Positions 11,717 to 25,039 of a DNA stretch of 28,311 bases are shown here, one piece after another. Both the position numbers and the translations under genes were made by a program. The stretch is taken from positions 1-28,311 of the forward strand of contig JBDNHG010000203.1 of the NCBI GenBank assembly GCA_041688925.1. Direction: 5' to 3'. Under the pieces are notes generated by a model. The model saw only the letters and a program-made list of their open reading frames with translations. It was not told where the DNA came from and did no database searches. Source of the DNA: Acidimicrobiales bacterium. GTDB lineage: Bacteria > Actinomycetota > Acidimicrobiia > Acidimicrobiales > UBA10347. Positions within the stretch are counted from its first letter, which is position 1, and every line of letters begins with the position of its first letter.

Positions 11717-13453
11717 TTAGCGCCCTCGGGATCCGCCCTCATCGGCCGCACCTGCCTGCAGGGCGTCGAGCAACCCCTTGTGCGCCCGGCGCACCGCCTC
11801 CACCTCGTCGGCCTGCAGGGCGAACGCAAGATCGTCCACACACCTCTCAAGGACAGCGGCGAACTCCCCGAGCCGCTCGCCATTCTCGATCAGCAGTCTC
11901 GTCGTGTGATAGAGCGCGAGTTCCGCCTCGTTGTGCGCGCCGGTAGCGTCGCGCCGACGGCGGTCCTCTTCGGCGTGCGACTCCGCCTCCATGACCATCT
12001 CCTCGATGACGTCGGGGGCGAGTGCCGACTGCCCCGTCATCGTGAGTTGCTGCTCCGCCCCCGTGAGCAGGTCCTTGGCGGCGACGTGGAGGATGCCATC
12101 GGCGTCGATCGTGAAGACCACCTCGATCTGCGGCTCGGCGCGTGCCATTCTCAGGATCCCCGCCAGCGTGAGGGTGCCCAGAGACCGGTTCTGGCTGGCC
12201 ATCGGCCGCTCTCCCTGCAGGACGTGCACCTCAACGCTGGTCTGCGCGTCCTCCGCTGTGGTGAAGATCTGCGAATGCTGCGTGGGAATGGTGGTGTTGC
12301 GCTCGATCAGCCTGGTCATGATGCCACCACGCGTCTCGATGCCCAAACTCAGTGGCGTGACATCGACGAGCAGCAGTCCCGTTCGCTCGCCCAGCAGCAC
12401 ACCGGCCTGCAGTGCTGCGCCCACGGCAACGACCCGCTCAGGGTCGATCCCCGCGTGCGGCTCCTTGCCGGTGAGTTCGCGCAGGAGGCTGCGGATCATC
12501 GGCATGCGCGTCGAGCCGCCGACGAGCACGACGTGATCCAATGCGGCGACCTGGATGCCTGCGTCGGACACGGCCCTCAGGAACAGTGCCGTGCATTCGG
12601 TGACCAGATCGGCCGTCTGCGCCTCGAACTCCGTGCGCGTGAGCCGCACGATGGCAGGGCCAGCGTCGGAGTCGCCGCCGACCGGCACGCTGACGGTTGT
12701 CTCGTCCTTGGTGGAGAGCACGACCTTCGCCGCCTCGGCGAGATCGAGCAGCCGCCTACGTAGGCCCGGATCAGAACGGAGGCCGGCGGCGTCGCTGCCG
12801 GGCACCTCGTTGAGCAGCCACGTGGCCAGGCGATCATCCCAGTCATTGCCCCCCAGGGTGACGTTGCCGCATGTCGAGCGCACCTCGAACACTCCGCCAG
12901 CGATGGACACAACGGAGACGTCGCACGTTCCGCCGCCCAGATCGAAGACCAGCACCATCTCGGCACCTTCGTTGCCAAGTCCGTACGCGAGTGCCGCCGC
13001 AGTCGGCTCGCTGAGCAGCCTCAGCACGTCGAGCCCAGCGATCTGGGCAGCATCCATGGTGGCCTGGCGCCCGGCGTCGTCAAAGTACGCTGGCACCGTG
13101 ACGACCGCCTGCGTCACGGGCTTGCCCACAGCGGCGCCGGCATCCCGCATGAGCTTCTGCAGGATTCGCGCCGAGATCTCCTCCGGGAACCACGTGCGCG
13201 AGGCAACCTCGAAAGTGAAGTCCGTGCCCATGTGACGCTTGACGGCGGGCACGACTCGTTCTGGATGCGTGACCGCTAGTTGGCACGCCAGGACGCCCAC
13301 GCAGACCTCCCCGTCGGGCGTGATGCCGACCATCGAGGGCGTGAACGACGATCCCTCAGAGTTGGGCAGCACGACCGGGTGGCCGTCCTTGAGGATCGCG
13401 ACCATCGAGTTGGTCGTTCCGAGGTCGATACCCACTGCAGTGTGTCTAGGCAT
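11717..13453 (-). CDS. dnaK: Hsp70/DnaK paralogue, last gene of the gas vesicle operon
   Basis: GIDLGTTNS, VKRHMG, VPAYFDD, EPTAAA, DLGGGTCDVS, LVGGSTRMP, DVTPLSLGIET, RNTTIPT, PQIEV; start overlaps the upstream gvpL stop by 8 nt. Confidence 0.93.
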   Translation of the reverse strand: MPRHTAVGIDLGTTNSMVAILKDGHPVVLPNSEGSSFTPSMVGITPDGEVCVGVLACQLAVTHPERVVPAVKRHMGTDFTFEVASRTWFPEEISARILQKLMRDAGAAVGKPVTQAVVTVPAYFDDAGRQATMDAAQIAGLDVLRLLSEPTAAALAYGLGNEGAEMVLVFDLGGGTCDVSVVSIAGGVFEVRSTCGNVTLGGNDWDDRLATWLLNEVPGSDAAGLRSDPGLRRRLLDLAEAAKVVLSTKDETTVSVPVGGDSDAGPAIVRLTRTEFEAQTADLVTECTALFLRAVSDAGIQVAALDHVVLVGGSTRMPMIRSLLRELTGKEPHAGIDPERVVAVGAALQAGVLLGERTGLLLVDVTPLSLGIETRGGIMTRLIERNTTIPTQHSQIFTTAEDAQTSVEVHVLQGERPMASQNRSLGTLTLAGILRMARAEPQIEVVFTIDADGILHVAAKDLLTGAEQQLTMTGQSALAPDVIEEMVMEAESHAEEDRRRRDATGAHNEAELALYHTTRLLIENGERLGEFAAVLERCVDDLAFALQADEVEAVRRAHKGLLDALQAGAADEGGSRGR

Positions 13454-14309
13454 CCGTGCCTGCTCCCTGTTCGGTCGCTTGGTCGTCGGTCACCGTGATG
13501 AGCAGGGGCATGTCGAATGCGCCGGCGAACGCGTAGGGGGCCCATGGTCCGGTGAACCGGACGGACAGCCCGGGAGACGCCTCCACCTCAGCCAGGTACT
13601 CACCGATCGAGCGCATCTTGTCAGGATGCGCGAGCACGGCAACGTCGAGCAGCAAGTGTTCGCTAGGCTGCGCCGCGCCCGGGCTGCCTTCACGCGCTGG
13701 ACGCTTAGGATTCACGACGATCCCCTCAGACCGAAGGGCGAGCTCGTCAAACACCGTGCTCGCCGTCAGGGCTTCAGCCGCCCGTGCCCGTTCCCGGTCC
13801 TGACGCTGGCTCAGCCGGGCCTGGAAGTAGGCGCGGCCTCGTGCCGCCGGTGCAGCGTCGGCGTCTGCAGACGGCACGGCGTGCGCCCGACCGGCGAATA
13901 CCTGCACCCCAAGCTCTACTCGGTCGCGCAGCGCATCGAGTCGCGACACGATCTCGTCGTGGCCCGCGTCCAACCAGGCCACGAGCACCTCGGCTGCCGT
14001 GCGATCTCCCGTCGCGGCAACGATCGAGTTGAATCGGATCGGCAGAATCGTGCCGGCATCCGCGTGAGCCGACCTGATCACCTCGTGCTGGGCCAGGACC
14101 CAGGTATGCACCTGCGCCACATCACCCTCGCAAGGATGCGGCGCGCAGTTGTGCGCCAGGACACCGATATCACCATGGGTCACCACGGTCACAGACGCAG
14201 CGTCGAACCCCGGAGCAGAGACGGAGAGGGGATGGCCGTCGAGCGCGACGCTCGGGACTACGCCGTAGAGATACAGCGCGGTGAGCGCCCCGCCACCCAC
14301 GTCCGCCAT
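13446..14309 (-). CDS. gvpL: GvpL/GvpF family gas vesicle protein
   Basis: LYLYGVV...HEVIRSA...TILPIRFNSIV...ELGVQV...FTGPWAPYAF. Confidence 0.88.
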   Translation of the reverse strand: MADVGGGALTALYLYGVVPSVALDGHPLSVSAPGFDAASVTVVTHGDIGVLAHNCAPHPCEGDVAQVHTWVLAQHEVIRSAHADAGTILPIRFNSIVAATGDRTAAEVLVAWLDAGHDEIVSRLDALRDRVELGVQVFAGRAHAVPSADADAAPAARGRAYFQARLSQRQDRERARAAEALTASTVFDELALRSEGIVVNPKRPAREGSPGAAQPSEHLLLDVAVLAHPDKMRSIGEYLAEVEASPGLSVRFTGPWAPYAFAGAFDMPLLITVTDDQATEQGAGTDA

Positions 14310-14324
14310 ACCAACCTCCGACTC

Positions 14325-15278
14325 CTAGGAATCCCCGTGAAAGGGCTGCACTGCTTGGTGTTCCTGACTGCGCTGCCCGACGATGACGAGGGTTCCATTC
14401 GACTGCACACTCACCGACACCTCAGCATACACGACCACCGGAAGCTCGATGTATCGCGAATAACCCCAGGCACCGGTGAGTAGCAAGCCTCGACCGCTGT
14501 CCTCAACGAGCGCTGTCACTGGTGCCTCGCTCAATCGGGTGGGCACGCTCATGATGGCGATGACCGTGTTGCCGTCACATTGCACGTCGCAGGGCTCGCG
14601 CATGGACAGCCAGAGCCCCGCCACCGTGCTATCGAGCCACCAGCTCATCGAATGCACGGCACCTGTCAACAGCTCGAACCGGCTTCTCTCGTAGCGGACG
14701 GCCGAGGCACCCAGCGCCTGGTCGACCGGGGCGAAATGATCGGCCACCATGCCGGGTAGCGCCCCCGCATGGTTCTCGTCGAGGTCGAGCAGCGCAGCCA
14801 GAGTCGCTGACGTCGCCGGACCGCCCGATGCCAGCATATCGAGGACTTGGGCGGTCGAGCCGGAGACCGTCTCGAGCACCCTTGTCAGGGCGACGGCCAT
14901 GCGCATCGGATCTGCCGGTCGTTGCAGGGCGATCCCTGGCGCCTTTGCCGTGAGCCTGGACTCCCATGCATCAAGGTCGCCGGTGAGCAGCCAGACGCGT
15001 CGCAGGGTGGACGTTGAGCGCGTCAGGTACGTCACCACGAGCACGGGCTTCGCCACCACCAGGAACTTGCGTTGCGTCGTCTCGACTCGGCGAACGCTGC
15101 CGAGCGGGATGCGCACGCTACCGCGCGTGCTCGCCGCCATGAACTCTAAATGGTGATCGTCCAGGCGCCACCGGCCCATCGCCCACGGCTTGCGCGAACC
15201 GGTGCTACACACGCCCGAGGCTACGAGCGGTCCGGTCCCTCCGTCAGCCCAGGCCGACCGAATAGCCATCTTGGCCAT
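14325..15278 (-). CDS. Hypothetical gvp-operon protein: PH/GRAM-like domain, helical/HTH-like middle, alpha-crystallin-like C-terminus
   Basis: W..GRWRLDDHHLEF...IPLGSVRRVE (PH-like); VLDMLASGGPATSATLAALLDL (wHTH-like); PCDVQCDGNTVIAIMSVP...YSRYIELP...SNGTLVI (Hsp20-like). The start (15278 or 15269) overlaps gvpK. Confidence 0.65.
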   Translation of the reverse strand: MAKMAIRSAWADGGTGPLVASGVCSTGSRKPWAMGRWRLDDHHLEFMAASTRGSVRIPLGSVRRVETTQRKFLVVAKPVLVVTYLTRSTSTLRRVWLLTGDLDAWESRLTAKAPGIALQRPADPMRMAVALTRVLETVSGSTAQVLDMLASGGPATSATLAALLDLDENHAGALPGMVADHFAPVDQALGASAVRYERSRFELLTGAVHSMSWWLDSTVAGLWLSMREPCDVQCDGNTVIAIMSVPTRLSEAPVTALVEDSGRGLLLTGAWGYSRYIELPVVVYAEVSVSVQSNGTLVIVGQRSQEHQAVQPFHGDS

Positions 15279-15573
15279 CGGCCACCCCTTTCGCGTTGAT
15301 CAGGCTGGTCACGAGATCATTCACCAGATCGTCGAGCTGGTCGCGAATCTCCTGCGTGGCGTCGGTGACGTCCAGCTCCTCCTTGAGCTCGGCGATCGCC
15401 TCCTCAATGTCTGCCATCGCATTTCCGATCCGCTCGACCTCCTCGTCAGTCAGGCTTCCCCGCTCCACGCGCTGCAACGCTGTGTGGGCGAGTACCTCCT
15501 GCACGACCTCGACCAGCGCGAACACCAGCCCGAGCAGTCCCTTCCGCAGGTCGTCCCGCTCAACGTTGATCAC
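15244..15573 (-). CDS. gvpK: Gas vesicle protein GvpK
   Basis: INVERDDLRKGLLGLVFALVEVVQEVL...ALQRVERGSLTDEEVERIG; GTG start overlaps the upstream stop (GTGA). Confidence 0.9.
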   Translation of the reverse strand: MINVERDDLRKGLLGLVFALVEVVQEVLAHTALQRVERGSLTDEEVERIGNAMADIEEAIAELKEELDVTDATQEIRDQLDDLVNDLVTSLINAKGVADGQDGYSVGLG

Positions 15574-16496
15574 GAGCTCAAGCTGTCCTCGTGGGACATG
15601 GCCTGCCGGATAGCGGTCGCCCAATGCTCGACGTCTTTGCTCACAAAGGCCAGCTCTTGGTGATCGTCGCGACGCACCAAGCACAGCACGTCGCAGTCGC
15701 CGAGCGGACCGCTGATAAGCCTTCGCTCGACGGTGACGCGCTCCAGCTCGGTCACCTGGACATCGACCACGCAGCGTCGCTCGAAGTCCGACCAGAATGA
15801 GAAGGAGCCATTGGAGATCGCGCCCCAGCCAGGTCGCCAGCCCCCCTCGCCACCACTGTCATGCCACAGCTGGCTCTCCGCGGTCACGTCCGGGAAGGCG
15901 ATACGCAGCTCCGCTGAGTCGAGCTGCGCGACCCGCACGTCCTGTCGACGCAGGAGGTCGGCGAGGACGGCCTGGAACATCTCCGGCTCACCCGTGCGCA
16001 CCAGCACAAGGGCCCCACTGGCGTCCGCAAGGCACACCACTTCACTGGTGACCCCGGCCTCGACGATGCTGAACGTGCCGATGGCTGCGACATCGCGCAG
16101 CGCCAAACTCACCAGGACCTCGTTCGGGCTGCGGCGCACCAGGAGGAGACGCTGGTCCGTGAGATAGGCACGACCCGGCCGCCACGTGCGCATGATGCCC
16201 TCATTGCTGCGGACCATGGCGAACTGCTCGATCACGATGTTCTCGCCGACGGCCAGTCCCAGCTGCGCCGGTCCCCGCTCGAGGGCAGCATCGGCACGCG
16301 TCGACTTGTCCCAGTCACCAAACATGCCGTAGGTGTTCATGGTCTCGATGGACGCCAGTGCAGCGTGCAGGCTGAGACCGACGAGCGGGATCCCAGCCAC
16401 GCTGATGATGAGATCGAGCTTGACGAATACACCGCGGTCCAGCACGCGTTCCAGAAGGTCGCTCATGCCTGCCTTCGTGTCGACTACAGGTTCCAC
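15570..16496 (-). CDS. gvpM: GvpA-family (GvpM/S-like) domain fused to two PH/GRAM-like domains
   Basis: N-terminus LLERVLDRGVFVKLDLIISVAGIPLVGLSLHAALASIETMNTYGMFGDWD, then two repeats each containing WRPG-[aromatic]...L/I-T/S...L. Confidence 0.7.
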   Translation of the reverse strand: MEPVVDTKAGMSDLLERVLDRGVFVKLDLIISVAGIPLVGLSLHAALASIETMNTYGMFGDWDKSTRADAALERGPAQLGLAVGENIVIEQFAMVRSNEGIMRTWRPGRAYLTDQRLLLVRRSPNEVLVSLALRDVAAIGTFSIVEAGVTSEVVCLADASGALVLVRTGEPEMFQAVLADLLRRQDVRVAQLDSAELRIAFPDVTAESQLWHDSGGEGGWRPGWGAISNGSFSFWSDFERRCVVDVQVTELERVTVERRLISGPLGDCDVLCLVRRDDHQELAFVSKDVEHWATAIRQAMSHEDSLSS

Positions 16497-16539
16497 AGTC
16501 GTGTCCGTCTGCTGGCTGCTACTGGATTGGAGCTAGGTG

Positions 16540-16917
16540 TCATACGGCGGGCGGCGCGTACGTATCGTCGCCAGGTTTAGTATGGGCGAGCGCGCTCTGC
16601 CAGCCGCAAGCCGGGCAGCCCTCCTCGAGCAACTCGGAGCGGCCAGCGAACCGCTCGTCGCACGCCGGACAGGCGACCTTCGCGATCATGGCGTCCTGCC
16701 ACGCCGGCACGGTCAAGTCCGTTCCCGCGGGGAACTCAAGTCCGTATCGTGCGGCGGTCTCGAACGACGCCAGAGCGGCGCGCACCTTGATGCCAAGCAG
16801 CTCGACGCCCGCGAGCGAGATCAGAATATCGGCGTTGATCACCAGCCCCTTGTCGAGGATCGCGTCGATCACGTCGACGAGCGAGCCGCTCGTGTCGTTG
16901 ACTGGCTGAAGCTGCAT
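16540..16917 (-). CDS. gvpJ: Gas vesicle protein GvpJ with C-terminal CxxC...CxxC zinc ribbon
   Basis: SLVDVIDAILDKGLVINADILISLAGVELLGIKVRAALASFETAARYGLEFP; CPAC...CPACGW; purine-rich RBS (GAAGGGGAAG) before ATG 16917. Confidence 0.9.
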   Translation of the reverse strand: MQLQPVNDTSGSLVDVIDAILDKGLVINADILISLAGVELLGIKVRAALASFETAARYGLEFPAGTDLTVPAWQDAMIAKVACPACDERFAGRSELLEEGCPACGWQSALAHTKPGDDTYAPPAV

Positions 16918-16991
16918 CGTCTTCCCCTTCAACTGGTGCTGTGTGTCCATGCCGTAGTCACGCTAATCGCGCTGCACGGCTGGTCGGCTGG

Positions 16992-17279
16992 TCATTCGGG
17001 TACATCTTCGAATCCGATCTGCTGTCCCATGGTCCGCGAGAAGAGTCGCTCCCAAGACAGCAGGCTTCCCTCGCTGTCGAGGATCACCTCGTACACCCCC
17101 ACGATGTTCTGGGTGTCGGGCACGCGCCGGAGCTCGGTGACCTCGACCTGCCCCTCCCAGCCTTCCTCGGCACGCTCCAAGGACACGACACTGAGGGCCT
17201 CGAAGCCGGTCACGAGCCGGATGTCCTCCTTGATGCCCTTCGCGATCTGCACAATGTTGCGTCTGATTACCATCGTCAT
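16992..17279 (-). CDS. gvpO: Gas vesicle protein GvpO (GvpR)
   Basis: VTG...SVVSLERAEEGWEGQVEVTELRRVPDTQNIVGVYEVILDSEGSLLSWER. Confidence 0.9.
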   Translation of the reverse strand: MTMVIRRNIVQIAKGIKEDIRLVTGFEALSVVSLERAEEGWEGQVEVTELRRVPDTQNIVGVYEVILDSEGSLLSWERLFSRTMGQQIGFEDVPE

Positions 17280-17338
17280 TTCCTCTCATATTGGGTTGGC
17301 CTTCGCATTCCCCGGACCGGGCTGGCATGCGCCTTCGT

Positions 17339-17650
17339 CTACGCCCGCCTCCGGCGGCGACCCGCGGGCTGGCTGGCCACGCTGCCGGAGCGTGGCTCCT
17401 CCTGACCCGCCGTCCGGCGCTCCTCGATGCCGTCGAGCCGACTCAACAGGACTGCCTCGGCGGCCTCGTATCGCTCGAGCGTGAGCTCTCCAGCGTCCAG
17501 TCGTCTCTGGAGGTCAGCCAATGCGGCCCGAATCTGCCCCGGATCGTTGAACTCGCGGTCGGCTTGCTCCACGACCTTGTTGAACACGTAGACCAGGCCT
17601 TTCGCAGGCAGCGTCAACGGCCCGAGGAGGATTCCCGTGATGAGGCTCAT
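17339..17650 (-). CDS. gvpG: Gas vesicle protein GvpG
   Basis: LLGPLTLPAKGLVYVFNKVVEQADREFNDPGQIRAALADLQRRLDAGELTLERYE; ATGA overlap with gvpF. Confidence 0.92.
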   Translation of the reverse strand: MSLITGILLGPLTLPAKGLVYVFNKVVEQADREFNDPGQIRAALADLQRRLDAGELTLERYEAAEAVLLSRLDGIEERRTAGQEEPRSGSVASQPAGRRRRRA

Positions 17651-18453
17651 CTTCTCACCCGGCGCCGGCCGCGCTCGCGCCCACGCCGCGGGAGCGCCGA
17701 CTCCAGTTGCGGCACGAAGCCGTACGGCGCCGCTGGTGCACCGACTGTCATCACGTAGCGGCCGTCGATGTTACTGTCGTGGGCCTTGACCGCTGCGGTA
17801 AAGGCGTCGATTCCGTCGCGATGCACCAGGAACGAGGCGTCGAGCACCATCGTCTCTTCGCCATGCTCGTTCAGGTGGACACCGTCCTGCGCAGCACACT
17901 CTTTGAGTGCATTGACGATGTCGTCGCCCTCGGCCAAGCGTTTCGCCGTCAGTGATCGCTCAACTCGCTTGCCGACATCGAGCCGCATGTTCTGCGATGC
18001 CTGAGAGGTCGCCAGTCGACGCCGGGCCTCCCGCAGCCACGGGTCAGCGGCCACGATCTCGGCGATGATGGACTTGATGTTGAACCAGCGCACGACGAGG
18101 CCGATCTCGACCATGCCGTCGACCCGCTCGATCTGGGCGCGCAGCGGCTCGTAGTAGGTCTCGAGCAGCTCGTCCGCGATCGCATCTCGATTTCGGACGC
18201 TGCCGAACCGGGCAGGAAGGACCGCGAACCGCTCCATCAACGCGGTGACCACGGCCTCGTGGCCGAGCACATTTCGCCGGGAGACCTCGTAACGCTCCTT
18301 CTGAGCGTCGCTAACGATCACCGTCAGGTCGCGGTAGGCGATCCCGTAGACTGGTCCGTCGCCGTCAACGGACGTCACCCCGGCCAGCGGGCCGGAGTGG
18401 TCGCCGCGAACGACGCCGTAGAAGTAGACCGAACTGCCGACAGCCTCGGACAT
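17647..18453 (-). CDS. gvpF: Gas vesicle protein GvpF
   Basis: VYFYGVV...HEAVVTALMERFAVLPARFG...EIGLVVRW...LDASFLV...APYGFV; conserved F-G gene pair. Confidence 0.92.
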   Translation of the reverse strand: MSEAVGSSVYFYGVVRGDHSGPLAGVTSVDGDGPVYGIAYRDLTVIVSDAQKERYEVSRRNVLGHEAVVTALMERFAVLPARFGSVRNRDAIADELLETYYEPLRAQIERVDGMVEIGLVVRWFNIKSIIAEIVAADPWLREARRRLATSQASQNMRLDVGKRVERSLTAKRLAEGDDIVNALKECAAQDGVHLNEHGEETMVLDASFLVHRDGIDAFTAAVKAHDSNIDGRYVMTVGAPAAPYGFVPQLESALPRRGRERGRRRVRR

Positions 18454-18454: not shown

Positions 18455-19489
18455 TCAATCCCTTCCGATACTACGCTCGATGGACGCGAAGAGAACCGCT
18501 GCGTGCGGATCGAAGGCGCGGTCTCCTCGGTGCTGGCACACGGTCACGAGGGTCGCCCGTGCCTTCGTCAGATCCTCGAAATCGCGGACGGCATCCGGAT
18601 CGGCAGTTCGGACATCAGGGTGCCGCTCGAGCGCTAGCCCCCGGTACTGGGCCTGCACCGCCGACTCGTCGAAGGCATGCGGGAGGCCGAGGATGACGCG
18701 GGCCCGCTCGATCTCATCCGGATGGATCCGGTGCGCGTACACCGTGGCGAAGCTGTACGGCGGCAGTGGACCCACTCGCCGGAAATTGTACCGACCCTCG
18801 AGCTCGGCATCGAGGCGATACAACGCCTGGTCGATCCCGGCGACGCCGACGGGATCGACGAGAAGCGCTATGTTGCACACGAGCTCGTCGGAGACGAGTT
18901 CGTTGAGATGCACGTCGCTGGCCAACGGTCGCAGGTGCTCGAGGACCACGCTCTCCAGATGGCTACGCCGCTCGTGGAGCATCGCCTCGACCAGCCGGCC
19001 AACACCGATCACGGCCTCGGGACGCTGCTCGGCCGGAACTGCGTTGGCTGCAGACTTGGCAGCCAAGACCTCCGGATCGAGGGCGATCTGCGCAAGGTTC
19101 TCGCTGAGGTCCCAGGTCGTGGCGATAGCGATCTCCACCGTGCCCGCATGCGCTGCGCAAGCCGTGCGAAGGAGCTGCCCAGACGTGCGTAACAGCGACG
19201 TCACGGCATCGTCGTCGTCCATGACGGTGCCGAGCCGCACCGGCAGCAGGCTGCCGCCACTCATGAGCTGCTCGATGACCTTCTGGTTCAGCAGGAGGCG
19301 CCCGGTCAACTCGTTCTGCGGAACGTCCTCGATGGCCAGACCTCGGTAGGCGCTGACGAAGGCCACCAGGCCCTCAGCAAGGATCGCCCGCACGGGTTCG
19401 AACTGCTCAGGCAGATCGAACCCGTCCAGCGGAGCGGTCCGGTCCTCCGCTGCTCCGATCGCGAACAGATAGGTGCGGCAATCACTCAT
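18455..19489 (-). CDS. GvpF/GvpL family protein with C-terminal J-domain (HPD motif)
   Basis: GvpF/L core (YLFAIG...LLPVRLG...NIALLV...GPLPPYSF), then ARVILGL...AVQAQYRGLALERHPDV...RDFEDLTKARATL. Confidence 0.88.
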   Translation of the reverse strand: MSDCRTYLFAIGAAEDRTAPLDGFDLPEQFEPVRAILAEGLVAFVSAYRGLAIEDVPQNELTGRLLLNQKVIEQLMSGGSLLPVRLGTVMDDDDAVTSLLRTSGQLLRTACAAHAGTVEIAIATTWDLSENLAQIALDPEVLAAKSAANAVPAEQRPEAVIGVGRLVEAMLHERRSHLESVVLEHLRPLASDVHLNELVSDELVCNIALLVDPVGVAGIDQALYRLDAELEGRYNFRRVGPLPPYSFATVYAHRIHPDEIERARVILGLPHAFDESAVQAQYRGLALERHPDVRTADPDAVRDFEDLTKARATLVTVCQHRGDRAFDPHAAVLFASIERSIGRD

Positions 19490-21635
19490 TCCTTACTCCC
19501 GGCCGATGTCGCAGCGTCTCCAGTGCCGCATCGAAGTGCGCTGCCCTCACGGAGAGCTTGGCGCTCTCACTCTCGCCATTGACGATGAATTCGCGTACTG
19601 CCGCCATCGTCGCATCGCGGCACAACTCAGCGAGCTCTGCGCCCTGGTACCCATCCGTCTGCTCTGCGAGAGCGTCAAGGTCGACGTCGTCGGCCAGCAG
19701 GTCGGTCTGGGTGTGAATACCGAGGATAGCCCGACGGGCCGTGCTGTCCGGAGCACCGATTTCGATCACCATGTCGAATCGACCTGGCCGCAGGATTGCT
19801 GCATCGATCATGTCGATGCGGTTCGTCGCACCAAGGACGGTCACGCCGCGAAGGTCCTCGATCCCGTCCAGCTCCGTCAGGACCTGGCCGAGCACTCGCT
19901 CCGAGACGTTGTCACCCGACCCGCGTCCACGCTTCTGCGCGATGACGTCGATCTCGTCGAAGAAGAGGATGCATGGTGCTGCCTGCCTTGCCTTCTTGAA
20001 GATCTCGCGGACCGCCTTCTCAGACTCCCCGACCCACTTCGAGATCAGCTCGGGACCCTTGACCGAGAGGAAGTTGGCATTGACCTCGTGCGCAACTGCC
20101 TTGGCCAGCAGCGTCTTGCCGCAGCCGGGAGGCCCGACGAGGAGGATGCCCTTCGGCGGGCTCACCGACGCCTGTTCGAAGATGTCTGCGTACGTGCGAG
20201 GCCACTCGACCGCTTCGCGAAGCACTTGCTTGACGTTCTCTAGGCCGCCGACGTCCGCCCACGTCGTGTCGGCGATCTCGATGAAGAACTCGCGGATCAT
20301 CGACGGCTGCACCTCCAGCATCGCCGTGGCGAAGTCACCGCCATCCACCGTGAGGGCGAGCAGTTCCTCATCGGGGATCTCGGAGTTCGTGAAGTCGATG
20401 TTCGGGATGATTCTGCGCAGCGCGCCCATGGCGGCTTCCCGGCCCAGCGCCTGCACGTCCGCGCCCACGTAGCCGTGGGTCAACGTCGCGATGCGCTCCA
20501 GGTCGACGTCATCGCCGAGCGGCATGCCCCGTGTGTGGATTTCGAGGATTTCCCGACGGCCGTTGCGGTCCGGGATCGGGATCACGATCTCCCGGTCGAA
20601 CCGCCCCGGTCGCCTGAGTGCCGGGTCGATGTTGTCTGGAAGGTTGGTCGCGCCGATGACCACGACCTGCCCGCGGGCCGCGACACCGTCCATCAGGCCC
20701 AGCAGCTGAGCGACGACGCGCTTCTCCACTTCGCCCTGCACCTCGGCGCGCTTGGGCGCGATGGCATCGATCTCGTCGATAAAGATGATGCTCGGCGCGT
20801 TGGATTCCGCATCGGCAAAGATGCGACGCAGATGCGCCTCGCTCTCGCCATACAGCCGGTGAATGATCTCGGGGCCATTGACGTGGATGAAGTGCGCCGA
20901 CGTCTCGTGCGCGATGGCACGGGCGATCAACGTCTTGCCGCACCCCGGCGGCCCGTGAAGGAGCACGCCCTTGGGTGCGTCGATGCCGAGCCGATCGAAG
21001 ACCTCGGGGAAGCGAAGCGGCAGCTCGATCATCTCCCGGATGCGATGGAGCGTGCGTCCGAGACCGCCGATGTCCTCGTAGGAGATGGCCAGGTCGTTGC
21101 GCGGCTCGCGGGCCGTCGAACCGGACCCGCCGACGATCTTGACGCGCGTGCCATCCCGCAGGAACACGACCCCCTTGGGGGTCGTGCCCTCCACTTGGAA
21201 GTCCTGCGGACGAGAGCCGAAGAGGTTCACCCGTACACGGTCCCCCGTCTGGACGACCATGCCGTCGAGCAGCCGCCCGATGTAGGACCCGTCACGAGCC
21301 TGCGACAGGCGTGGTGCTCCGATCATGCTGAGTGTCACGGACCGGGCCACCTCGCACTGCGCCTTGCGCACCTCCACGCGCTCGTCCAGGCCGGCACCCG
21401 CGTTCTCGCGCGCGATACCGTCGATCTGCACGATCTCGTTCCCGCGGTCGTCGGGATACACCGGCACGACCTTCAGCACAGCGTCACGAGTGCCCGTGAC
21501 AGCGACAACGTCGCCGATCTTCACATCCACTCTCGCCATGTCGCTTGGGTCGAGGCGGGCGATTCCGCGTCCGGCATCCTTGGGCAGGCCCTCGGCCACC
21601 CGAAGAGTCACGCCGGGACGCTCGTCAGGATTCAC
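19482..21635 (-). CDS. Cdc48/p97/VAT family AAA+ ATPase
   Basis: N-domain (DAGRGIARLD), two AAA modules (GPPGCGKT x2, FIDEID/FFDEID, RPGRFD x2); GTG start with GAGG RBS overlapping the hsp20 stop. Confidence 0.95.
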   Translation of the reverse strand: MNPDERPGVTLRVAEGLPKDAGRGIARLDPSDMARVDVKIGDVVAVTGTRDAVLKVVPVYPDDRGNEIVQIDGIARENAGAGLDERVEVRKAQCEVARSVTLSMIGAPRLSQARDGSYIGRLLDGMVVQTGDRVRVNLFGSRPQDFQVEGTTPKGVVFLRDGTRVKIVGGSGSTAREPRNDLAISYEDIGGLGRTLHRIREMIELPLRFPEVFDRLGIDAPKGVLLHGPPGCGKTLIARAIAHETSAHFIHVNGPEIIHRLYGESEAHLRRIFADAESNAPSIIFIDEIDAIAPKRAEVQGEVEKRVVAQLLGLMDGVAARGQVVVIGATNLPDNIDPALRRPGRFDREIVIPIPDRNGRREILEIHTRGMPLGDDVDLERIATLTHGYVGADVQALGREAAMGALRRIIPNIDFTNSEIPDEELLALTVDGGDFATAMLEVQPSMIREFFIEIADTTWADVGGLENVKQVLREAVEWPRTYADIFEQASVSPPKGILLVGPPGCGKTLLAKAVAHEVNANFLSVKGPELISKWVGESEKAVREIFKKARQAAPCILFFDEIDVIAQKRGRGSGDNVSERVLGQVLTELDGIEDLRGVTVLGATNRIDMIDAAILRPGRFDMVIEIGAPDSTARRAILGIHTQTDLLADDVDLDALAEQTDGYQGAELAELCRDATMAAVREFIVNGESESAKLSVRAAHFDAALETLRHRPGVRNE

Positions 21636-22254
21636 CCTGGTCCTCGCCCTCAGCGGCCTTGTCCGCAGCGTCAGGGTCGGGCGATCCCGCCGGCGCTGCC
21701 TTCGCGTATCGGATCTGCAGGTAACCGTTGTCGTAACTCTGCTGCGCTGATCCTGGATCGACGGAAGCGGGCAGCAACGTTTCGCACTCATACCGATGTC
21801 GATTGCCCTTCGCTTCGACCGCCATTACGTCGCCGTTCAGCTCGACGTGGATGTCACGCTCGGCAACTCCTGGCAGCTCAAAGACGATGAGGATCTCGTC
21901 ACCCTCGTCGAAGACGTCCACAAGGGGCTCTCTGGTCTCGCTGACGACAACGCCCTCATTGGTCATCTTGACGTTGCCGAACTCGCTCACCACCGGCTCT
22001 GGATCCCCTAGGCCGGTTCGGATGGAGAGTCCGTATACACCACGGCCACCGCCGGGGATCGAGAACTGCTTGTTTCGGGACATCCCCGGAGGCCGACCGC
22101 CAGAGGAGGAGGATGAGCTCGAGGGCATGGAGTCTGCCGCGTCCTGGAGCGACTGCGCCTGCTCGCTCAGCGTCTGCAGCAACGTGACTAGGTCGGAGAC
22201 CACGTTTGAAGCGCCCTTGATGCCGGGGGGACGCTTGTCGGGGTTAGTCGTCAT
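21625..22254 (-). CDS. gvpH: Hsp20/alpha-crystallin family protein (GvpH-like)
   Basis: GVYGLSIRTGLG...EFGNVK...TREPLVDVFDEGDEILIVFELPGV...YDNGYLQIR. Confidence 0.88.
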   Translation of the reverse strand: MTTNPDKRPPGIKGASNVVSDLVTLLQTLSEQAQSLQDAADSMPSSSSSSSGGRPPGMSRNKQFSIPGGGRGVYGLSIRTGLGDPEPVVSEFGNVKMTNEGVVVSETREPLVDVFDEGDEILIVFELPGVAERDIHVELNGDVMAVEAKGNRHRYECETLLPASVDPGSAQQSYDNGYLQIRYAKAAPAGSPDPDAADKAAEGEDQGES

Positions 22255-22269
22255 GGTGATTCCAATCCA

Positions 22270-22595
22270 CTCTGTGGTTACTGCACGATTTGTCGATCGC
22301 CACGTAAAGGTCGAACCACACGCCCTTGTCCGGACCCCGCAGCGCTGTGGTGCCCCAACCCCACGCGCCCGCAGTACCGGCCAGCGGCTCGATCTCATCG
22401 TAGCAGGCGTCGTACGCCTCCACGATCGCCAGATCGTACTCGGCAGTGAACGTCCGCCGCCGAGGCTTGTGCGCGAAAGTGGGGCCATCATCGGCCATCG
22501 CCCCATCATGGGATCGCTGCATCATCCGGATTGGTATCATCATTGCTGTGCACCTAGTCCAGTCTCGGCCTTTAAGGATCGCGGGCAACCTGACG
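22270..22595 (-). mobile_element. Internally deleted IS3-family remnant inside the gvp operon
   Basis: OrfA-like KPRRRTFTAEYDLAIVEAYD is joined directly to OrfB-like AWGWGTTALRGPDKGVWFDLYVAID; a possible left end (c/t)GTCAGGTTGCCCGCG lies near 22595. Boundaries approximate. Confidence 0.7.
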
Positions 22596-22609
22596 TCCTG
22601 CGCATGACG

Positions 22610-22954
22610 TCAGTAACGAAGCTCAATCACGTCCCAGGCCCGCGGCGAGTCGCCTCGCTTGTTCGGCTGCTTCTCTCCTATGGAGTTCTCTCCTATGGAG
22701 TCGAGCTCCTTATTAAGGCGTGCCATCTGCTGCGCCAGAGTCTCGAGCCGCGAGAGCGCAAGCTGCTCCTTACCACGTAAGATCGCGAGCTGGGCTCGAA
22801 GCCTGGCTTCCTCTGCGCTTAACGTACTGAGCTGGAAATAGACCTCATGCTGGCTCCGTCCAGACCGTCTGCCCGCTCCCTTCGCCCGCGCATCGCCCAT
22901 CGAGGGAACACGTGAGGTACTGCTTCGACCGCGGCCAGCGCCTTGGATAGGCAT
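22610..22954 (-). CDS. gvpV: GvpV-like coiled-coil gas vesicle protein
   Basis: Directly after gvpN; YFQLSTLSAEEARL followed by a coiled coil and a terminal IELRY, the pattern I recall for GvpV. Confidence 0.65.
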   Translation of the reverse strand: MPIQGAGRGRSSTSRVPSMGDARAKGAGRRSGRSQHEVYFQLSTLSAEEARLRAQLAILRGKEQLALSRLETLAQQMARLNKELDSIGENSIGEKQPNKRGDSPRAWDVIELRY

Positions 22955-22956
22955 GG

Positions 22957-23913
22957 CTAAATCGGGGCTAGGTCGACTGAAGTATCCGCCTGCTCGACAG
23001 GGCGCAGTGCAACCTTTGCGCGAACGATGCTCACCAGCTTTTGCCGAACCTCGGACTCGTGGCGATTGGACGCACCACCGCCCGTCGGACGAAGCATGCT
23101 CAGCAGCACGTCGCAGCACGTCGACTCGAACCACGGATCATCAGCAACCGAGTGCTTCTCGTTGGCGAGCACCGCTCCGATCATCACGGCGCTTCGCACC
23201 GTCGGGACGTGACTATCACCGAGCAACTCTCGGACCTCGCGGACGATTGAGACGATGACTGCCGAGTCGGCCGCGTTAGCACCCGATCGCGCCTTGGTGA
23301 TCGCTACCTCGGTCTCGAAGTCGAACGTGCTTACGTCCAGGGTCATCATGCGCTGCACGAGAGCGTCCTGCGCTTGGTGGACGCCGGCGTACTCGGACGG
23401 ATTGCTCGTGAAGATCGCAGTGAAGTCGGGGTGTACCTTGAGGTAGCTCGAGCCGCGTCGACGAGCCGGCAGTACCAGCACGCCCTCCTCAAGTACAGAG
23501 AGAAGAATGTTGTTCGCCTCAGGACGCGATCGCGTGAACTCGTCATAGACGAGGGTCAGGCCCTCGCTGCATGCCAGGGTCAGGCGGTTGTCGACCCACG
23601 ACTCGCGGACCGAGTCCTCCACCTTGCGCACCGAATGGATAAATTTGTCCACGACGCGTTTACGGTCATACCCGGTGGCGCCGCCCACCAGGTCGGAGGT
23701 GCCGAACTCGTCGTCACCCGTCATCAACATGACGGGGCGCCCGATCTGCTGGGCGATGTGCATAGCTATTGTGGTCTTGCCCACGCCTGTGGGCCCTGCC
23801 AGATGAAGCGGGAAACCCGCTCGGATGTAACTGAGCCCACGCTCGGTTAGGGATTGCACGTACGGGGTGGCGACGAAATCCGGCCGTGGACTCAGCTGCA
23901 CGATCGATGGCAT
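22957..23913 (-). CDS. gvpN: Gas vesicle AAA+ ATPase GvpN (MoxR clade)
   Basis: GFPLHLAGPTGVGKT, LVYDEFTRSRPEANNILLSVLEEG, HPDFTAIFTSNPSEYAGVHQAQDAL; AAGGA RBS. Confidence 0.95.
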   Translation of the reverse strand: MPSIVQLSPRPDFVATPYVQSLTERGLSYIRAGFPLHLAGPTGVGKTTIAMHIAQQIGRPVMLMTGDDEFGTSDLVGGATGYDRKRVVDKFIHSVRKVEDSVRESWVDNRLTLACSEGLTLVYDEFTRSRPEANNILLSVLEEGVLVLPARRRGSSYLKVHPDFTAIFTSNPSEYAGVHQAQDALVQRMMTLDVSTFDFETEVAITKARSGANAADSAVIVSIVREVRELLGDSHVPTVRSAVMIGAVLANEKHSVADDPWFESTCCDVLLSMLRPTGGGASNRHESEVRQKLVSIVRAKVALRPVEQADTSVDLAPI

Positions 23914-24000
23914 TAGACTTTTCCTTATTTCCGGGTTCGAAGAGTGGGGATATCCCACGCCCGCCCAGAGGATTGATTGGTTCCTTGCTGTGCCGTGGCC

Positions 24001-24663
24001 CTATACAGCGAAGTATTTGCCGGTCTCATCATCGCGAGTTACCTCGTGATCAGTCTCATACATTTCCTTGACCGGGCGCTGGAGGACGATGCGTGGAGTG
24101 CTGAAGTACTCCTCCATCTCGACGAGCGAGATACCACTCGGGTGGTCCGCTATGAAGGAGAAGATCTCGGCCTTTGTCGGGCGACGATCCTGGGCACCTG
24201 CCGCCGGCTTTGACTTCTTCGGCTCAACAGTCGCCTCTGCCGCCGGCTTCGACTTCTTCGGCTCAACAGCCGCGTCTGCCGCCGGCTTCGACTTTTTCGG
24301 CTCAACAGCCGCGTCTGCCGCCGGCTTCGACTTTTTCGGCTCAACGGTCGTCTCTGCAGCTGGCTTCGACTTCTTCGGCTCTGGGTTCGCATTCCAGCCG
24401 CTGCGGATGTCACTGATCGTGAGCAGCGCCGTCTGCAGGAGGCTCGCCGACTGCACGCGGGTCGCGCTGAGCTCTGCAACCGCAGCATCGGTGTCCGCAC
24501 GCATCTGCGCCACGTCCTCACTCATCGCCGCGATATTTGACAACCGCTCACCCCTATCGACGCTGGCCAACTCCAGGCGGATCACCTGGCCAGCCACTCT
24601 TCGCTCAGTTCCTGCGACCAGACTCTCCACGAGCCTTTGCATGTCATGCACTTGGCTAGTCAT
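24001..24663 (-). CDS. gvpC: GvpC-like protein with Lys/Ala/Pro-rich repeats and C-terminal winged-helix-like domain
   Basis: Position between gvpA and gvpN; helical N-terminus; (VEPKKSKPAAxAx)n; C-terminus IFSFIADHPSGISLVEMEEYF...GKYF; AGGAG RBS. Confidence 0.65.
   Translation of the reverse strand: MTSQVHDMQRLVESLVAGTERRVAGQVIRLELASVDRGERLSNIAAMSEDVAQMRADTDAAVAELSATRVQSASLLQTALLTISDIRSGWNANPEPKKSKPAAETTVEPKKSKPAADAAVEPKKSKPAADAAVEPKKSKPAAEATVEPKKSKPAAGAQDRRPTKAEIFSFIADHPSGISLVEMEEYFSTPRIVLQRPVKEMYETDHEVTRDDETGKYFAV
24199..24381 (-). repeat. 39-bp (13-aa) tandem repeat, about 4.7 copies, within the gvpC-like gene
   Basis: Units start at 24199, 24238, 24277, 24316 and 24355 (TGCCGCCGGCTTCGACTT(C/T)TTCGGCTC...). 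Confidence 0.95.
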
Positions 24664-24757
24664 TGTGAACTCCTACTTGTATGTACGGGATTGGGTACGA
24701 GGGGCGTGTTTTGGTGATGTGACCGGAGCGACCGTGGAAATGAGCGGAATCTCACGC

Positions 24758-24796
24758 GCCCGGAGTCCCGAGACTGGGCTGCGGTCTGCGCCGCAG
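24758..24796 (-). terminator. Two adjacent stem-loops downstream of gvpA (attenuator or RNA stabiliser)
   Basis: GCCCggAGTC-ccga-GACTGGGC and CTGCGG-tctgcg-CCGCAG; no U-tract. Confidence 0.4.
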
Positions 24797-24820
24797 GCCA
24801 ATCTCAGGTGAGCTAGCTGA

Positions 24821-25039
24821 TTACGCGTCGACTTCGTCGGCGTCCTTCAGCAGGCCAACGGCCTCCGCATACTTCAGCCACGTGTCGACCGACGCGATGA
24901 CCACGCGGGCTTCGATAGCGAGCAACTCGATACCAACTAGAGAAACGCGCACCCACGCGTCAACGACGACGCCCTTGTCGAGGATCCGGTCAACAACCTC
25001 AACCAGAGTTGATGCACCATTAGTGGTCTGAACAGCCAT
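24821..25039 (-). CDS. gvpA: Major gas vesicle structural protein GvpA
   Basis: [63 protein letters not shown]; AAGGAG RBS. Confidence 0.97.

What the first reader, a model, noticed from the sequence alone, without database searches (positions are those of the whole stretch)
11717..25039. Gas vesicle operon carrying its own proteostasis machinery (Hsp70 + J-domain + sHsp + Cdc48 + GvpN)
Seen: 16 co-oriented genes in which the chaperones are interleaved with gvp genes and overlap them or nearly so (hsp20/cdc48 11 nt, cdc48/gvpF-J 8 nt, gvpL/dnaK 8 nt, gvpF/gvpG and gvpM/gvpK 4 nt). Known: GvpA is very hydrophobic and aggregation-prone; GvpN is a MoxR ATPase; Hsp20-like GvpH and Cdc48 occur in some gvp clusters. 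Inference: a dedicated folding/unfolding line (holdase, Hsp70/J foldase, two AAA+ machines) for shell assembly or disassembly. A coupled DnaK with an in-operon J-protein is not a standard component of characterised gvp clusters that I know of.
Basis: partly seen in the sequence, partly recalled or inferred. Interest (0 to 1): 0.9.

Follow-up and report, generated by a model that had tools for sequence, protein, structure and literature searches.

The report
Gas vesicle genes with private chaperones
This lake bacterium's gene cluster for gas vesicles (protein-walled buoyancy organelles) carries its own Hsp70 chaperone, an assembly protein fused to the J-domain that switches Hsp70 on, a Cdc48 unfoldase and two small-heat-shock-type proteins, an arrangement that recurs across several phyla and that I found in no paper.

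Summary
Window 11717-25039 (minus strand) holds 16 co-oriented intact genes from gvpA to hsp70, and every quoted overlap checks out. The parts are gvpA, gvpN, F, G, O, J, M-like, K and L, an Hsp20/GvpH-like protein, a Cdc48 ATPase, a GvpL/F-J-domain fusion and a third, divergent Hsp70.

- **Extra chaperone part:** the unnamed 317-aa gene ends in another alpha-crystallin domain.
- **Retention:** all eight relatives examined in the actinobacterial Hsp70 clade sit last in a gvp cluster, seven with the same gene order, with differing flanks.
- **J fusion:** it is much wider. All 80 best loci across about ten phyla carry it, and there are more than 140 clusters at 50% identity. HPD is intact in about 82% of them.
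- **In-cluster Hsp70:** 22 of 80 loci have one. It is not one clade (AU p 3.7e-5), so it was recruited at least twice from the host lineage's own DnaK, each time losing DnaK's acidic tail.

Best reading: GvpL-J targets Hsp70 to GvpA-family shell proteins, with small-heat-shock-type holdases and Cdc48 assisting. Whether this serves assembly or recycling of collapsed vesicles is unresolved. Co-transcription could not be tested. This scan has noted the same theme in at least eight other genomes, and no paper on it was found.

The parts
24821..25039 (-). gvpA, major shell protein (72 aa)
   Evidence: PF00741 at 58.8 bits. 99% identical to the GvpA of L015.
24001..24663 (-). 220-aa protein with five EPKKSKPAA-type repeats, in the position where cyanobacterial clusters carry GvpC
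   Evidence: No Pfam or NCBIfam family. Homologues sit after gvpA in L015, L022, L023, L028, L029 and L033.
22957..23958 (-). gvpN, a MoxR-type AAA+ ATPase
   Evidence: TIGR02640 at 343.5 bits against cut-off 266.8. PF07728.
22610..22900 (-). 96-aa coiled-coil protein. The start was chosen by comparison with the 98-113-aa homologues.
   Evidence: Homologues lie between gvpN and hsp20 in L008, L010, L118 and L122. No family hit.
22255..22609 (.). Window-specific 355-nt insertion inside the cluster
   Evidence: The same gap is 49-53 nt in L122, L008 and L118. There is no other copy in the genome. Its 114-aa ORF has no family hit.
21625..22254 (-). Hsp20/GvpH-like small heat-shock protein (209 aa)
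   Evidence: PF00011 at 22.2 bits against 20.8. Archaeal Hsp20 model NF041800 at 121.6 bits, below its cut-off of 140. Weak GvpH hit.
19482..21635 (-). Cdc48-type N-D1-D2 double AAA+ ATPase (717 aa). Its GTG start overlaps the hsp20 stop by 11 nt.
   Evidence: TIGR01243 at 896 bits against 802.65. CDC48_N, CDC48_2 and two AAA domains. Start codon read.
18455..19489 (-). GvpL/F fused to a C-terminal J-domain (344 aa). The J-domain covers about 18530-18724 and the HPD codons are 18614-18622.
   Evidence: PF06386 plus PF00226. HPD is invariant in 17 diverse fusions. AF2 pLDDT 93; Foldseek matches GvpF 6L5D/4QSG and the J-domains of 4J7Z and 5NRO_B.
17647..18453 (-). GvpF
   Evidence: PF06386 at 166.8 bits.
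17339..17650 (-). GvpG
   Evidence: PF05120 at 74.2 bits.
16992..17279 (-). GvpO
   Evidence: PF05800 at 68.6 bits.
16540..16950 (-). GvpJ-like protein with a C-terminal CPxC...CPxCGW zinc-ribbon tail
   Evidence: PF00741 at 55.8 bits. The tail is conserved in 33 of 93 GvpJ-like ORFs of related loci.
15570..16496 (-). GvpM-like GvpA-family domain plus a 240-aa C-terminal extension
   Evidence: NF046091 GvpM over residues 1-67. PF00741. The extension gives only weak PH/Vps36 hits.
15244..15573 (-). GvpK (109 aa; GTGA overlap with the preceding gene)
   Evidence: PF05121. Start codon read.
14325..15278 (-). 317-aa protein made of a PH-like domain, a helical (winged-helix-like) middle and a C-terminal alpha-crystallin domain
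   Evidence: Alignment A3. AF2 pLDDT 82.8. Foldseek matches the Sulfolobus Hsp20.1 alpha-crystallin domain (E 5e-5, TMt 0.69) and PH domains.
13446..14309 (-). GvpL/F, the third paralogue
   Evidence: PF06386 at 133.4 bits.
11717..13453 (-). Divergent Hsp70 (578 aa), the last gene. Its ATG overlaps the gvpL stop by 8 nt.
   Evidence: PF00012 at 585 bits. It barely passes the DnaK model NF001413 and fails TIGR02350. It is a third paralogue beside two dnaK-grpE operons. It belongs to a gvp-linked clade.
25523..27376 (.). Flank: IS6/IS240-type transposase (25523-26419, minus strand) and tyrosine recombinase (26252-27376, plus strand)
   Evidence: PF13610 and PF00589.
10653..11246 (+). Flank: Tn3-family transposase fragment
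   Evidence: PF01526, profile positions 130-270 of 389 only.

Best explanation
This is a gas-vesicle gene cluster of a widespread but uncharacterised type that encodes its own ATP-driven system for handling shell proteins.

Proposed mechanism:
1. One GvpL/F paralogue keeps the GvpF fold, which in studied systems binds GvpA and the other accessory proteins. It carries a canonical J-domain at its C-terminus.
2. The J-domain stimulates ATP hydrolysis by an Hsp70. Here that is the private, tail-less paralogue encoded as the last gene of the cluster. In clusters without one, it would be the housekeeping DnaK.
3. Hsp70 then clamps the hydrophobic GvpA/J/M-family subunits at the nucleation complex and keeps them soluble until they are inserted into the growing shell.
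4. The Hsp20/GvpH-like protein and the PH-winged-helix-alpha-crystallin protein act as ATP-independent holdases.
5. Cdc48 extracts or unfolds mis-assembled subunits, and GvpN drives shell growth.

Shown here: the domain identities, the intact motifs, conserved synteny and start/stop overlap in relatives, and repeated recruitment of Hsp70.

Inferred: the clients, the pairing between this J-domain and this Hsp70, the direction of action (I favour assembly), and co-transcription.
For: Domains and motifs:
- HPD is invariant in 17 fusions at 24-60% identity. It is present in 120 of 146 representatives at 50% identity.
- The AF2 model has pLDDT 93. Foldseek matches GvpF 6L5D/4QSG (E 2e-14) and J-domains 4J7Z and 5NRO_B at 1.9-2.5 A.
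- The Hsp70 keeps the catalytic Lys, E171, the DLGGGT motif, R167, the hydrophobic interdomain linker and the substrate-binding core (alignments to Mtb and E. coli DnaK).

Retention:
- Eight relatives of the actinobacterial gvp-Hsp70 clade were examined (L008, L010, L016, L017, L018, L118, L119, L120). In each the Hsp70 is the last gene of a gvp cluster, with differing downstream flanks. L122 agrees as far as its short contig reaches. Gene order matches the window in all but L016, which is rearranged.

Spread:
- All 80 best loci from species-representative genomes, across about ten phyla, carry the J fusion. 57 have Cdc48, 54 have Hsp20 and 22 have an in-cluster Hsp70.

Independent recruitment:
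- gvp-linked Hsp70s form three groups. Two are sister to the housekeeping DnaK of their own phylum (support 99/98 and 100/99).
- A single origin is rejected (delta lnL 75, p-AU 3.7e-5; groups C+D together p 0.0008).
- All gvp-linked Hsp70s lack the acidic C-terminal motif that all 15 housekeeping DnaKs in the set carry.

Literature:
- GvpF is the only partner found for GvpA, and GvpL binds all accessory Gvp proteins (PMC7688916).
- GvpA2-GvpF-GvpG form an interaction subnetwork (PMC11445434).
- GvpH prevents GvpM aggregation (PMC6107691).
- Heterologous gas-vesicle expression causes proteotoxic stress that is relieved by expressing assembly factors first (PMC12848028).
Against: - There is no expression or biochemical data. 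No RNA run holds this DNA, and the promoter/terminator scan was uninformative.
- Hsp70 is missing from most J-fusion clusters, including actinobacterial ones with the same architecture (L019-L023). It is therefore dispensable, or replaceable by housekeeping DnaK.
- About 15% of full-length fusion representatives have lost HPD, so the J function is not universally kept.
- No grpE lies in the cluster.
- A 355-nt insertion sits inside this particular copy and might affect its expression.
- A combination of sHsp, Hsp70/J and a ring AAA+ unfoldase fits a disaggregase for collapsed vesicles as well as it fits an assembly line.
Confidence: 0.55

Rival explanations
1. Recycling rather than assembly. 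In this reading the sHsp-type proteins, Hsp70/J and Cdc48 form a private disaggregase, with Cdc48 in the role that ClpB plays in the bacterial bi-chaperone system. GvpL-J recognises collapsed or damaged shell sheets and recruits Hsp70. Cdc48 then threads GvpA subunits out so they can be reused or degraded.
For: - The set sHsp + Hsp70/J + hexameric AAA+ unfoldase matches the parts list of known disaggregation systems (established knowledge).
- Cdc48 lies directly upstream of the J fusion, often overlapping it, in most loci.
- Among the 10 loci with complete flanks, every one has Cdc48 or Hsp70.
Against: - The genes are interleaved with, and overlap, assembly genes (gvpF, G, J, K, L) that studied systems need early in vesicle formation.
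- No protease or proteasome gene lies in the cluster.
- The same preprint saw no chaperone induction after collapse in E. coli.
- This reading does not exclude an assembly role; both could hold.
Confidence: 0.3
2. Regulatory use of Hsp70. The J fusion and Hsp70 would control the amount or activity of a Gvp regulator or assembly factor, setting the timing or number of vesicles rather than chaperoning shell protein. This would resemble DnaK control of sigma-32 or HspR.
For: - Two relatives carry a LuxR-type response regulator and histidine kinase immediately downstream of hsp70 (L008 and L118).
- Hsp70 is dispensable in many clusters.
Against: - The J-domain is fused to a GvpF/L fold, whose known partners are structural and accessory Gvp proteins, not regulators (PMC7688916).
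- The two-component genes are absent from the window and from L010, L119 and L120.
- No DNA-binding regulator is consistently linked.
Confidence: 0.07
3. Incidental linkage. The Hsp70 would be a general stress paralogue that happens to travel on a mobile island next to gvp genes, with no gvp-specific role.
For: - The cluster is flanked by IS6 and Tn3 transposase genes and a recombinase.
- It was not found in 8 same-genus and 52 same-order genomes.
- The Hsp70 still scores as DnaK on one NCBIfam model.
Against: - The Hsp70 is the last gene of the gvp cluster in every relative examined, with unrelated flanks, and its start overlaps the gvpL stop in most of them.
- Hsp70 was recruited into J-fusion gvp clusters at least twice independently.
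- The DnaK tail was lost each time.
- Two ordinary dnaK-grpE operons exist elsewhere in the genome.
Confidence: 0.04

Closest known systems
Characterised gas-vesicle clusters (Halobacterium gvpACNO/DEFGHIJKLM, Anabaena/Dolichospermum, Bacillus megaterium pNL29, Serratia 39006)
   Same: They share the core set found here: gvpA, N, F, G, J/M, K, L and O, plus an Hsp20-like GvpH in haloarchaea. GvpF/L act as interaction hubs (PMC7688916, PMC11445434).
   Different: As far as the searched literature shows, none is described with an Hsp70, a J-domain on GvpF/L, a Cdc48 ATPase, a PH-wH-ACD protein or a zinc-ribbon GvpJ.
GvpF crystal structures 4QSG (Microcystis) and 6L5D (Anabaena)
   Same: Residues 1-250 of the fusion model superpose on them (TMt 0.78-0.79, E about 1e-13 to 2e-14).
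   Different: They end after the GvpF fold. The window protein adds a 65-residue J-domain and a final beta-strand.
HscA/HscB, the dedicated Hsp70/J-protein pair for Fe-S cluster assembly
   Same: It follows the same logic: a specialised Hsp70 paralogue lacking the general DnaK tail, paired with a J-protein that is itself the client-specific adaptor, both encoded within the pathway's operon.
   Different: The window Hsp70 is not an HscA (TIGR01991 at 517 bits against cut-off 708.55). In the tree it derives from actinobacterial DnaK. The J-domain here is fused to a GvpF fold, not to an HscB C-domain.
sHsp-DnaK/DnaJ-ClpB bi-chaperone disaggregase
   Same: It combines a holdase, an Hsp70 with a J-protein, and a hexameric AAA+ threading motor.
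   Different: The motor here is a Cdc48-type N-D1-D2 ATPase, not ClpB. There is no M-domain, and cooperation between Cdc48 and Hsp70 is untested.
Gas vesicles of mesophilic Chloroflexales (Oscillochloris, Ca. Viridilinea)
   Same: The J-fusion + Cdc48 cluster type is present in Oscillochloris sp. ZM17-4 (L036) and other Chloroflexales genomes (L083, L089). Mesophilic Chloroflexales make real vesicles, seen by cryo-ET in Ca. Viridilinea (PMC7332563).
   Different: Those clusters lack an in-cluster Hsp70. That paper discusses only gvpA and gvpN.

Membership tests
Gas vesicle (gvp) gene cluster | GvpA shell protein plus GvpN and the accessory set F/L, G, J/M, K, O on one strand | tested here: met
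   Pfam and NCBIfam hits for all of them. This is the only gvp locus in the genome.
Gas vesicle (gvp) gene cluster | The organism actually forms gas vesicles | not testable with these tools
   The genome is an uncultured lake-water MAG. Related cluster types occur in the vesicle-forming Chloroflexales.
J-domain protein (Hsp40/JDP) | HPD tripeptide between helices II and III | tested here: met
   H290-P291-D292. Invariant in alignment A1, at least 90% conserved in A2, and present in 120 of 146 representatives.
J-domain protein (Hsp40/JDP) | Four-helix J-domain fold | tested here: met
   In the AF2 model (pLDDT 93) the C-terminal 59 residues match 4J7Z (rmsd 1.9 A) and 5NRO_B (TMt 0.80). PF00226 at 34.7 bits against 27.8.
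J-domain protein (Hsp40/JDP) | Stimulates Hsp70 ATPase | not testable with these tools
   This needs a biochemical assay.
Hsp70 | Nucleotide-binding domain with its catalytic motifs, a hydrophobic linker and a substrate-binding domain | tested here: met
   PF00012 covers residues 6-564 at 585 bits. Residue-level alignment to Mtb and E. coli DnaK.
Housekeeping DnaK (equivalog) | Scores above the curated DnaK cut-offs | tested here: inconclusive
   NF001413 scores 660.6 against 648, a bare pass. TIGR02350 scores 646.2 against 822.55, a fail.
Housekeeping DnaK (equivalog) | Conserved acidic C-terminal tail and a dnaK-grpE operon context | tested here: not met
   The tail motif is absent here but present in all 15 housekeeping DnaKs compared. 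grpE lies next to the two other dnaK genes and not next to this one.
HscA | Scores above the HscA equivalog cut-off | tested here: not met
   TIGR01991 scores 517.3 against 708.55.
Cdc48/p97/VAT AAA+ ATPase | N domain plus two AAA modules, scoring above the family cut-off | tested here: met
   TIGR01243 scores 896 against 802.65. CDC48_N, CDC48_2, two AAA domains and two AAA_lid_3 domains are found. GPPGCGKT and DEID motifs are readable in both modules.
Small heat-shock protein (alpha-crystallin domain) | An alpha-crystallin domain | tested here: met
   Gene 21625-22254: PF00011 at 22.2 bits against 20.8. Gene 14325-15278: the C-terminal domain matches the Sulfolobus Hsp20.1 alpha-crystallin domain (E 5e-5, rmsd 2.6 A).
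sHsp-Hsp70-ClpB disaggregase | A ClpB/Hsp104 with an M-domain | tested here: not met
   No ClpB lies in the cluster; the AAA+ protein is Cdc48-type. Any resemblance is functional only.

The most novel reading that the evidence does not exclude
In many bacterial phyla gas-vesicle biogenesis would be an Hsp70-dependent, ATP-driven process. An ancestral GvpL/F-J-domain adaptor delivers shell subunits to Hsp70. Lineages have repeatedly duplicated their own DnaK to make a private, tail-less gas-vesicle Hsp70. That Hsp70 works with Cdc48 and sHsp-type proteins as an organelle-specific assembly and disaggregation machine, a bacterial Cdc48-Hsp70 partnership with no described precedent.
Probability: 0.5. 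Interest if true: 0.85.

Novelty: new variant of a known kind. Interest (0 to 1): 0.72.

Why it matters
How the extremely hydrophobic GvpA is kept soluble and inserted into a growing shell is an open question, and it limits the use of gas vesicles as acoustic reporter genes. Heterologous expression causes proteotoxic stress (PMC12848028).

A natural cluster type that carries its own Hsp70, its own J-domain adaptor, a Cdc48 unfoldase and holdases gives a concrete and testable answer. It also offers parts that could be co-expressed to improve assembly in foreign hosts.

The repeated, independent capture of an Hsp70 by these clusters is a clear example of convergent specialisation of a general chaperone for one organelle. 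The only well-known parallel in bacteria is HscA/HscB.

Tried and rejected
- **Co-transcription:** neither of the two run searches found an RNA run holding this DNA, only lake-metagenome DNA runs. The sigma-70 promoter and terminator scan found nothing useful in this 64% GC DNA.
- **Literature:** seven searches found no paper on Hsp70, a J-domain or Cdc48 in gvp clusters. This covers only the open-access library held here. The single Cdc48 mention in a gvp paper refers to a non-specific Ni-NTA binder.
- **One ancient gas-vesicle Hsp70 family spread with the cluster:** rejected by the AU test. However, a common origin of the actinobacterial clade and the Dehalococcoidia-type clade is not rejected (p 0.056). 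I therefore claim at least two origins, not three.
- **IS3 remnant:** by eye the 355-nt insert looked like one, but Pfam and NCBIfam gave no hit and the genome has no second copy. It is left unexplained.
- **Convergent substitutions in the Hsp70 substrate pocket:** few positions are shared across the gvp clades (K to R at window residue 86, loss of Asp at 359 before the linker). I draw no functional conclusion from them.

Full report
**Observation**

The window is 64% GC. Between 25039 and 11717 it carries 16 intact ORFs, all on the minus strand. Pfam and NCBIfam identify them in order as:
1. gvpA
2. a 220-aa protein with EPKKSKPAA repeats and no family
3. gvpN (TIGR02640, above cut-off)
4. 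a 96-aa coiled-coil protein
5. an Hsp20/GvpH-like protein
6. a Cdc48-family N-D1-D2 ATPase (TIGR01243, 896 bits against 803)
7. a GvpL/F protein with a C-terminal DnaJ domain
8. GvpF
9. GvpG
10. GvpO
11. a GvpJ-like protein
12. a GvpM-like domain with a 240-aa extension
13. GvpK
14. an unnamed 317-aa protein
15. a third GvpL/F
16. an Hsp70 of 578 aa (PF00012, 585 bits)

They are 11 nt for hsp20/cdc48 (GTG at 21635 behind a GAGGA), 8 nt for cdc48/gvpL-J, 4 nt for gvpF/gvpG, 4 nt (GTGA) for gvpM-like/gvpK and 8 nt for gvpL/hsp70. One detail differs from a uniformly tight operon. A 355-nt stretch (22255-22609) separates the coiled-coil gene from hsp20, whereas the closest relatives have about 50 nt there.

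**Is the Hsp70 part of the cluster?**

The genome is a lake-water MAG of 4.46 Mb, 76% complete. It has two other full-length dnaK genes, each followed directly by grpE, and no other gvp locus. The cluster's Hsp70 is therefore a third paralogue.

In the 5.8-billion-protein search it belongs to a tight group of 15 clusters at 68-100% identity and 505-588 aa. After that there is a sharp drop to 57% identity with ordinary DnaKs, mostly of 600-630 aa.

I examined the genomic context of eight relatives of this clade and its sister clade (L008, L010, L016, L017, L018, L118, L119, L120). In every one the Hsp70 is the last gene of a gvp cluster, after the final gvpL/F, and seven have the same gene order as the window. 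L016 is rearranged, and the contig of L018 starts at Cdc48. Its start overlaps the gvpL stop by 8 or 4 nt in L010, L118, L119 and L120, while L008 and L122 have a short gap. The DNA beyond the Hsp70 differs from case to case. The closest relative, L122, agrees as far as its short contig reaches. The first refutation criterion, "not retained in homologous clusters", is therefore not met for this lineage.

**The J-domain fusion is the widespread element**

- The fusion has relatives carrying both PF06386 and PF00226 in many metagenomes, including Chloroflexota.
- In an alignment of 17 fusions at 24-60% identity the HPD tripeptide is invariant.
- A scan of one genome per species found 184 related loci. 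The best 80 span Actinomycetota, six classes of Chloroflexota, Planctomycetota, Armatimonadota, Pseudomonadota, Acidobacteriota, Nitrospirota, Gemmatimonadota and others.
- My ORF-level annotation of those 80 loci found a J-domain on a GvpL/F in all 80, Cdc48 in 57 (usually immediately upstream of the fusion), an Hsp20-like gene in 54 and an in-cluster Hsp70 in 22. Many loci are cut by contig ends, so these are lower bounds.
- A profile search of 1.84 billion representatives returned more than 140 distinct 50%-identity clusters matching the profile, nearly all through the J-domain. 120 of 146 keep HPD, and about 15% of full-length ones have lost it.
- The ESM Atlas holds 13 large clusters automatically named as DnaJ/GvpL-GvpF proteins.
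- The AF2 model of the window's fusion is confident (pLDDT 93, pTM 0.86). Its first 250 residues match the GvpF crystal structures 6L5D and 4QSG. Its C-terminal 59 residues match J-domains, including the one bound to DnaK in 5NRO.

**Origin of the private Hsp70**

I built a maximum-likelihood tree of 27 gvp-linked Hsp70s and 15 housekeeping DnaKs. The housekeeping set includes those from the same genomes. The gvp-linked proteins fall into three well-supported groups:
- The actinobacterial group, including the window, is sister to actinobacterial housekeeping DnaK (99/98).
- An Anaerolineales group, where hsp70 sits directly upstream of the J fusion, is sister to Chloroflexota housekeeping DnaK (100/99).
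- A third group, from Dehalococcoidia, other Chloroflexota and a Phycisphaerales genome, stands apart.

Forcing all gvp-linked Hsp70s into one clade costs 75 log-likelihood units (p-AU 3.7e-5). Joining the Anaerolineales and Dehalococcoidia-type groups is rejected (p 0.0008). Joining the actinobacterial and Dehalococcoidia-type groups is not quite rejected (p 0.056). Hsp70 was therefore recruited into J-fusion gvp clusters at least twice by duplication of the lineage's own DnaK. One caveat is that the groups were named after a first quick tree had been seen.

Every gvp-linked Hsp70 lacks the acidic C-terminal motif present in all 15 housekeeping DnaKs. They keep 80-91% of the columns that are invariant among housekeeping DnaKs.

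At residue level the window protein retains the following (E. coli numbering, taken from the tool's alignment to 2KHO):
- the catalytic lysine, E171 and the DLGGGT motif
- R167
- a hydrophobic interdomain linker
- the beta-sandwich substrate-binding core

It barely passes one NCBIfam DnaK model and fails the other. It is not an HscA.

The unnamed 317-aa gene has distant homologues whose C-termini show a textbook alpha-crystallin pattern. Its AF2 model (pLDDT 83) has three parts: an N-terminal PH-like domain, a helical middle and a C-terminal domain. The C-terminal domain matches the Sulfolobus Hsp20.1 alpha-crystallin domain (E 5e-5). The cluster thus encodes two sHsp-type proteins and three ATPases (GvpN, Cdc48, Hsp70).

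**Mechanism**

Published interaction maps make GvpF the only partner found for GvpA, and GvpL the hub for all accessory proteins (PMC7688916; see also PMC11445434). GvpH limits GvpM aggregation (PMC6107691). [quoted passage not shown]

Putting a J-domain on a GvpF/L fold is therefore the expected way to aim Hsp70 at shell subunits held in the nucleation complex. I favour an assembly-side role (0.55). In it the J fusion triggers Hsp70 to clamp GvpA-family proteins and hand them to the growing shell. The ACD (alpha-crystallin domain) proteins act as holdases and Cdc48 removes mis-assembled subunits.

The main rival (0.3) is a private disaggregase for collapsed vesicles. This fits the sHsp + Hsp70/J + ring-ATPase parts list. 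[quoted passage not shown] The two are not exclusive. Regulatory use and incidental linkage are unlikely for the reasons given under the rivals.

**Context**

The cluster is bracketed by an IS6-type transposase and a tyrosine recombinase on one side and a Tn3 transposase fragment on the other. The fusion gene was not found in eight genomes of the same genus (four at least 94% complete) or in 52 of the same order. The cluster therefore looks like an acquired island in this MAG, or else the contig is mis-binned. Neither possibility affects the finding.

**Novelty**

Seven searches of the open-access library found no description of Hsp70, J-domains or Cdc48 in gvp clusters. The cryo-ET paper on the vesicle-forming Chloroflexales, whose relatives carry the J-fusion + Cdc48 type, mentions only gvpA and gvpN. 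Automatic annotation already names the domain pair.

This scan has reported the same theme in at least eight other genomes, and all of those reports also found no paper.

I class it as a new variant of a known kind of system. Interest is 0.72.

Noticed in passing
window 22255-22609: A 355-nt insertion lies inside the cluster between the coiled-coil gene and hsp20. It is absent from the closest relatives, which have a 49-53 nt gap. Its 114-aa ORF has no family hit and the genome has no second copy. By eye it resembles a degraded IS3 orfA/integrase remnant, but that is unverified.
   Followed up: partly
window 16540-16950: The GvpJ-like protein ends in a CPxC...(E)LL..GCPxCGW zinc-ribbon tail. 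The tail is conserved in 33 of 93 GvpJ-like ORFs of related loci, mostly in clusters that also carry the extended GvpM-like gene or an Hsp70.
   Followed up: partly
window 14325-15278: The unnamed 317-aa gene encodes a PH-like domain, a helical (winged-helix-like) middle and an alpha-crystallin domain. This is a second sHsp-type protein in the cluster, with an unusual architecture.
   Followed up: yes
window 15570-16496: A GvpM-like GvpA-family domain (residues 1-67) is followed by a 240-aa extension that gives only weak PH and Vps36-GLUE hits. Homologues of 300-377 aa sit directly before the Hsp70 in many Chloroflexota clusters.
   Followed up: partly
window 24001-24663: The protein in the GvpC position carries five 13-aa Lys/Pro/Ala repeats and has no family hit. 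Homologues of 245-451 aa follow gvpA in several related loci.
   Followed up: no
window 10653-11246 and 25523-27376: A Tn3 transposase fragment, an IS6-type transposase and a tyrosine recombinase bracket the cluster. The GvpL-J gene was not found in 8 same-genus and 52 same-order genomes. This suggests an acquired island or a mis-binned contig.
   Followed up: partly
L008:12454-13991 and L118:11777-13563: In two relatives a LuxR-type response regulator and a histidine kinase lie immediately downstream of hsp70 on the opposite strand. They could be a regulator of the cluster. In the window that position holds the Tn3 fragment.
   Followed up: no
Representatives P0230-P0341: About 15% of full-length GvpL/F-J representatives have a J-like domain without HPD (AYRRLAA... 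with no His-Pro-Asp). I did not check whether these clusters lack an in-cluster Hsp70.
   Followed up: no
ESM Atlas hit: An Actinomycetota cluster of GvpF/L proteins is fused to an Lsr2 (nucleoid-associated) domain. This is another unexpected GvpF/L fusion.
   Followed up: no
G000 contigs C540 and C192 (L001, L002, L116, L117): The MAG holds two complete dnaK-grpE operons. The C192 copy is far from the actinobacterial DnaKs in the tree (end branch 0.54), so it may come from a contaminating contig.
   Followed up: no
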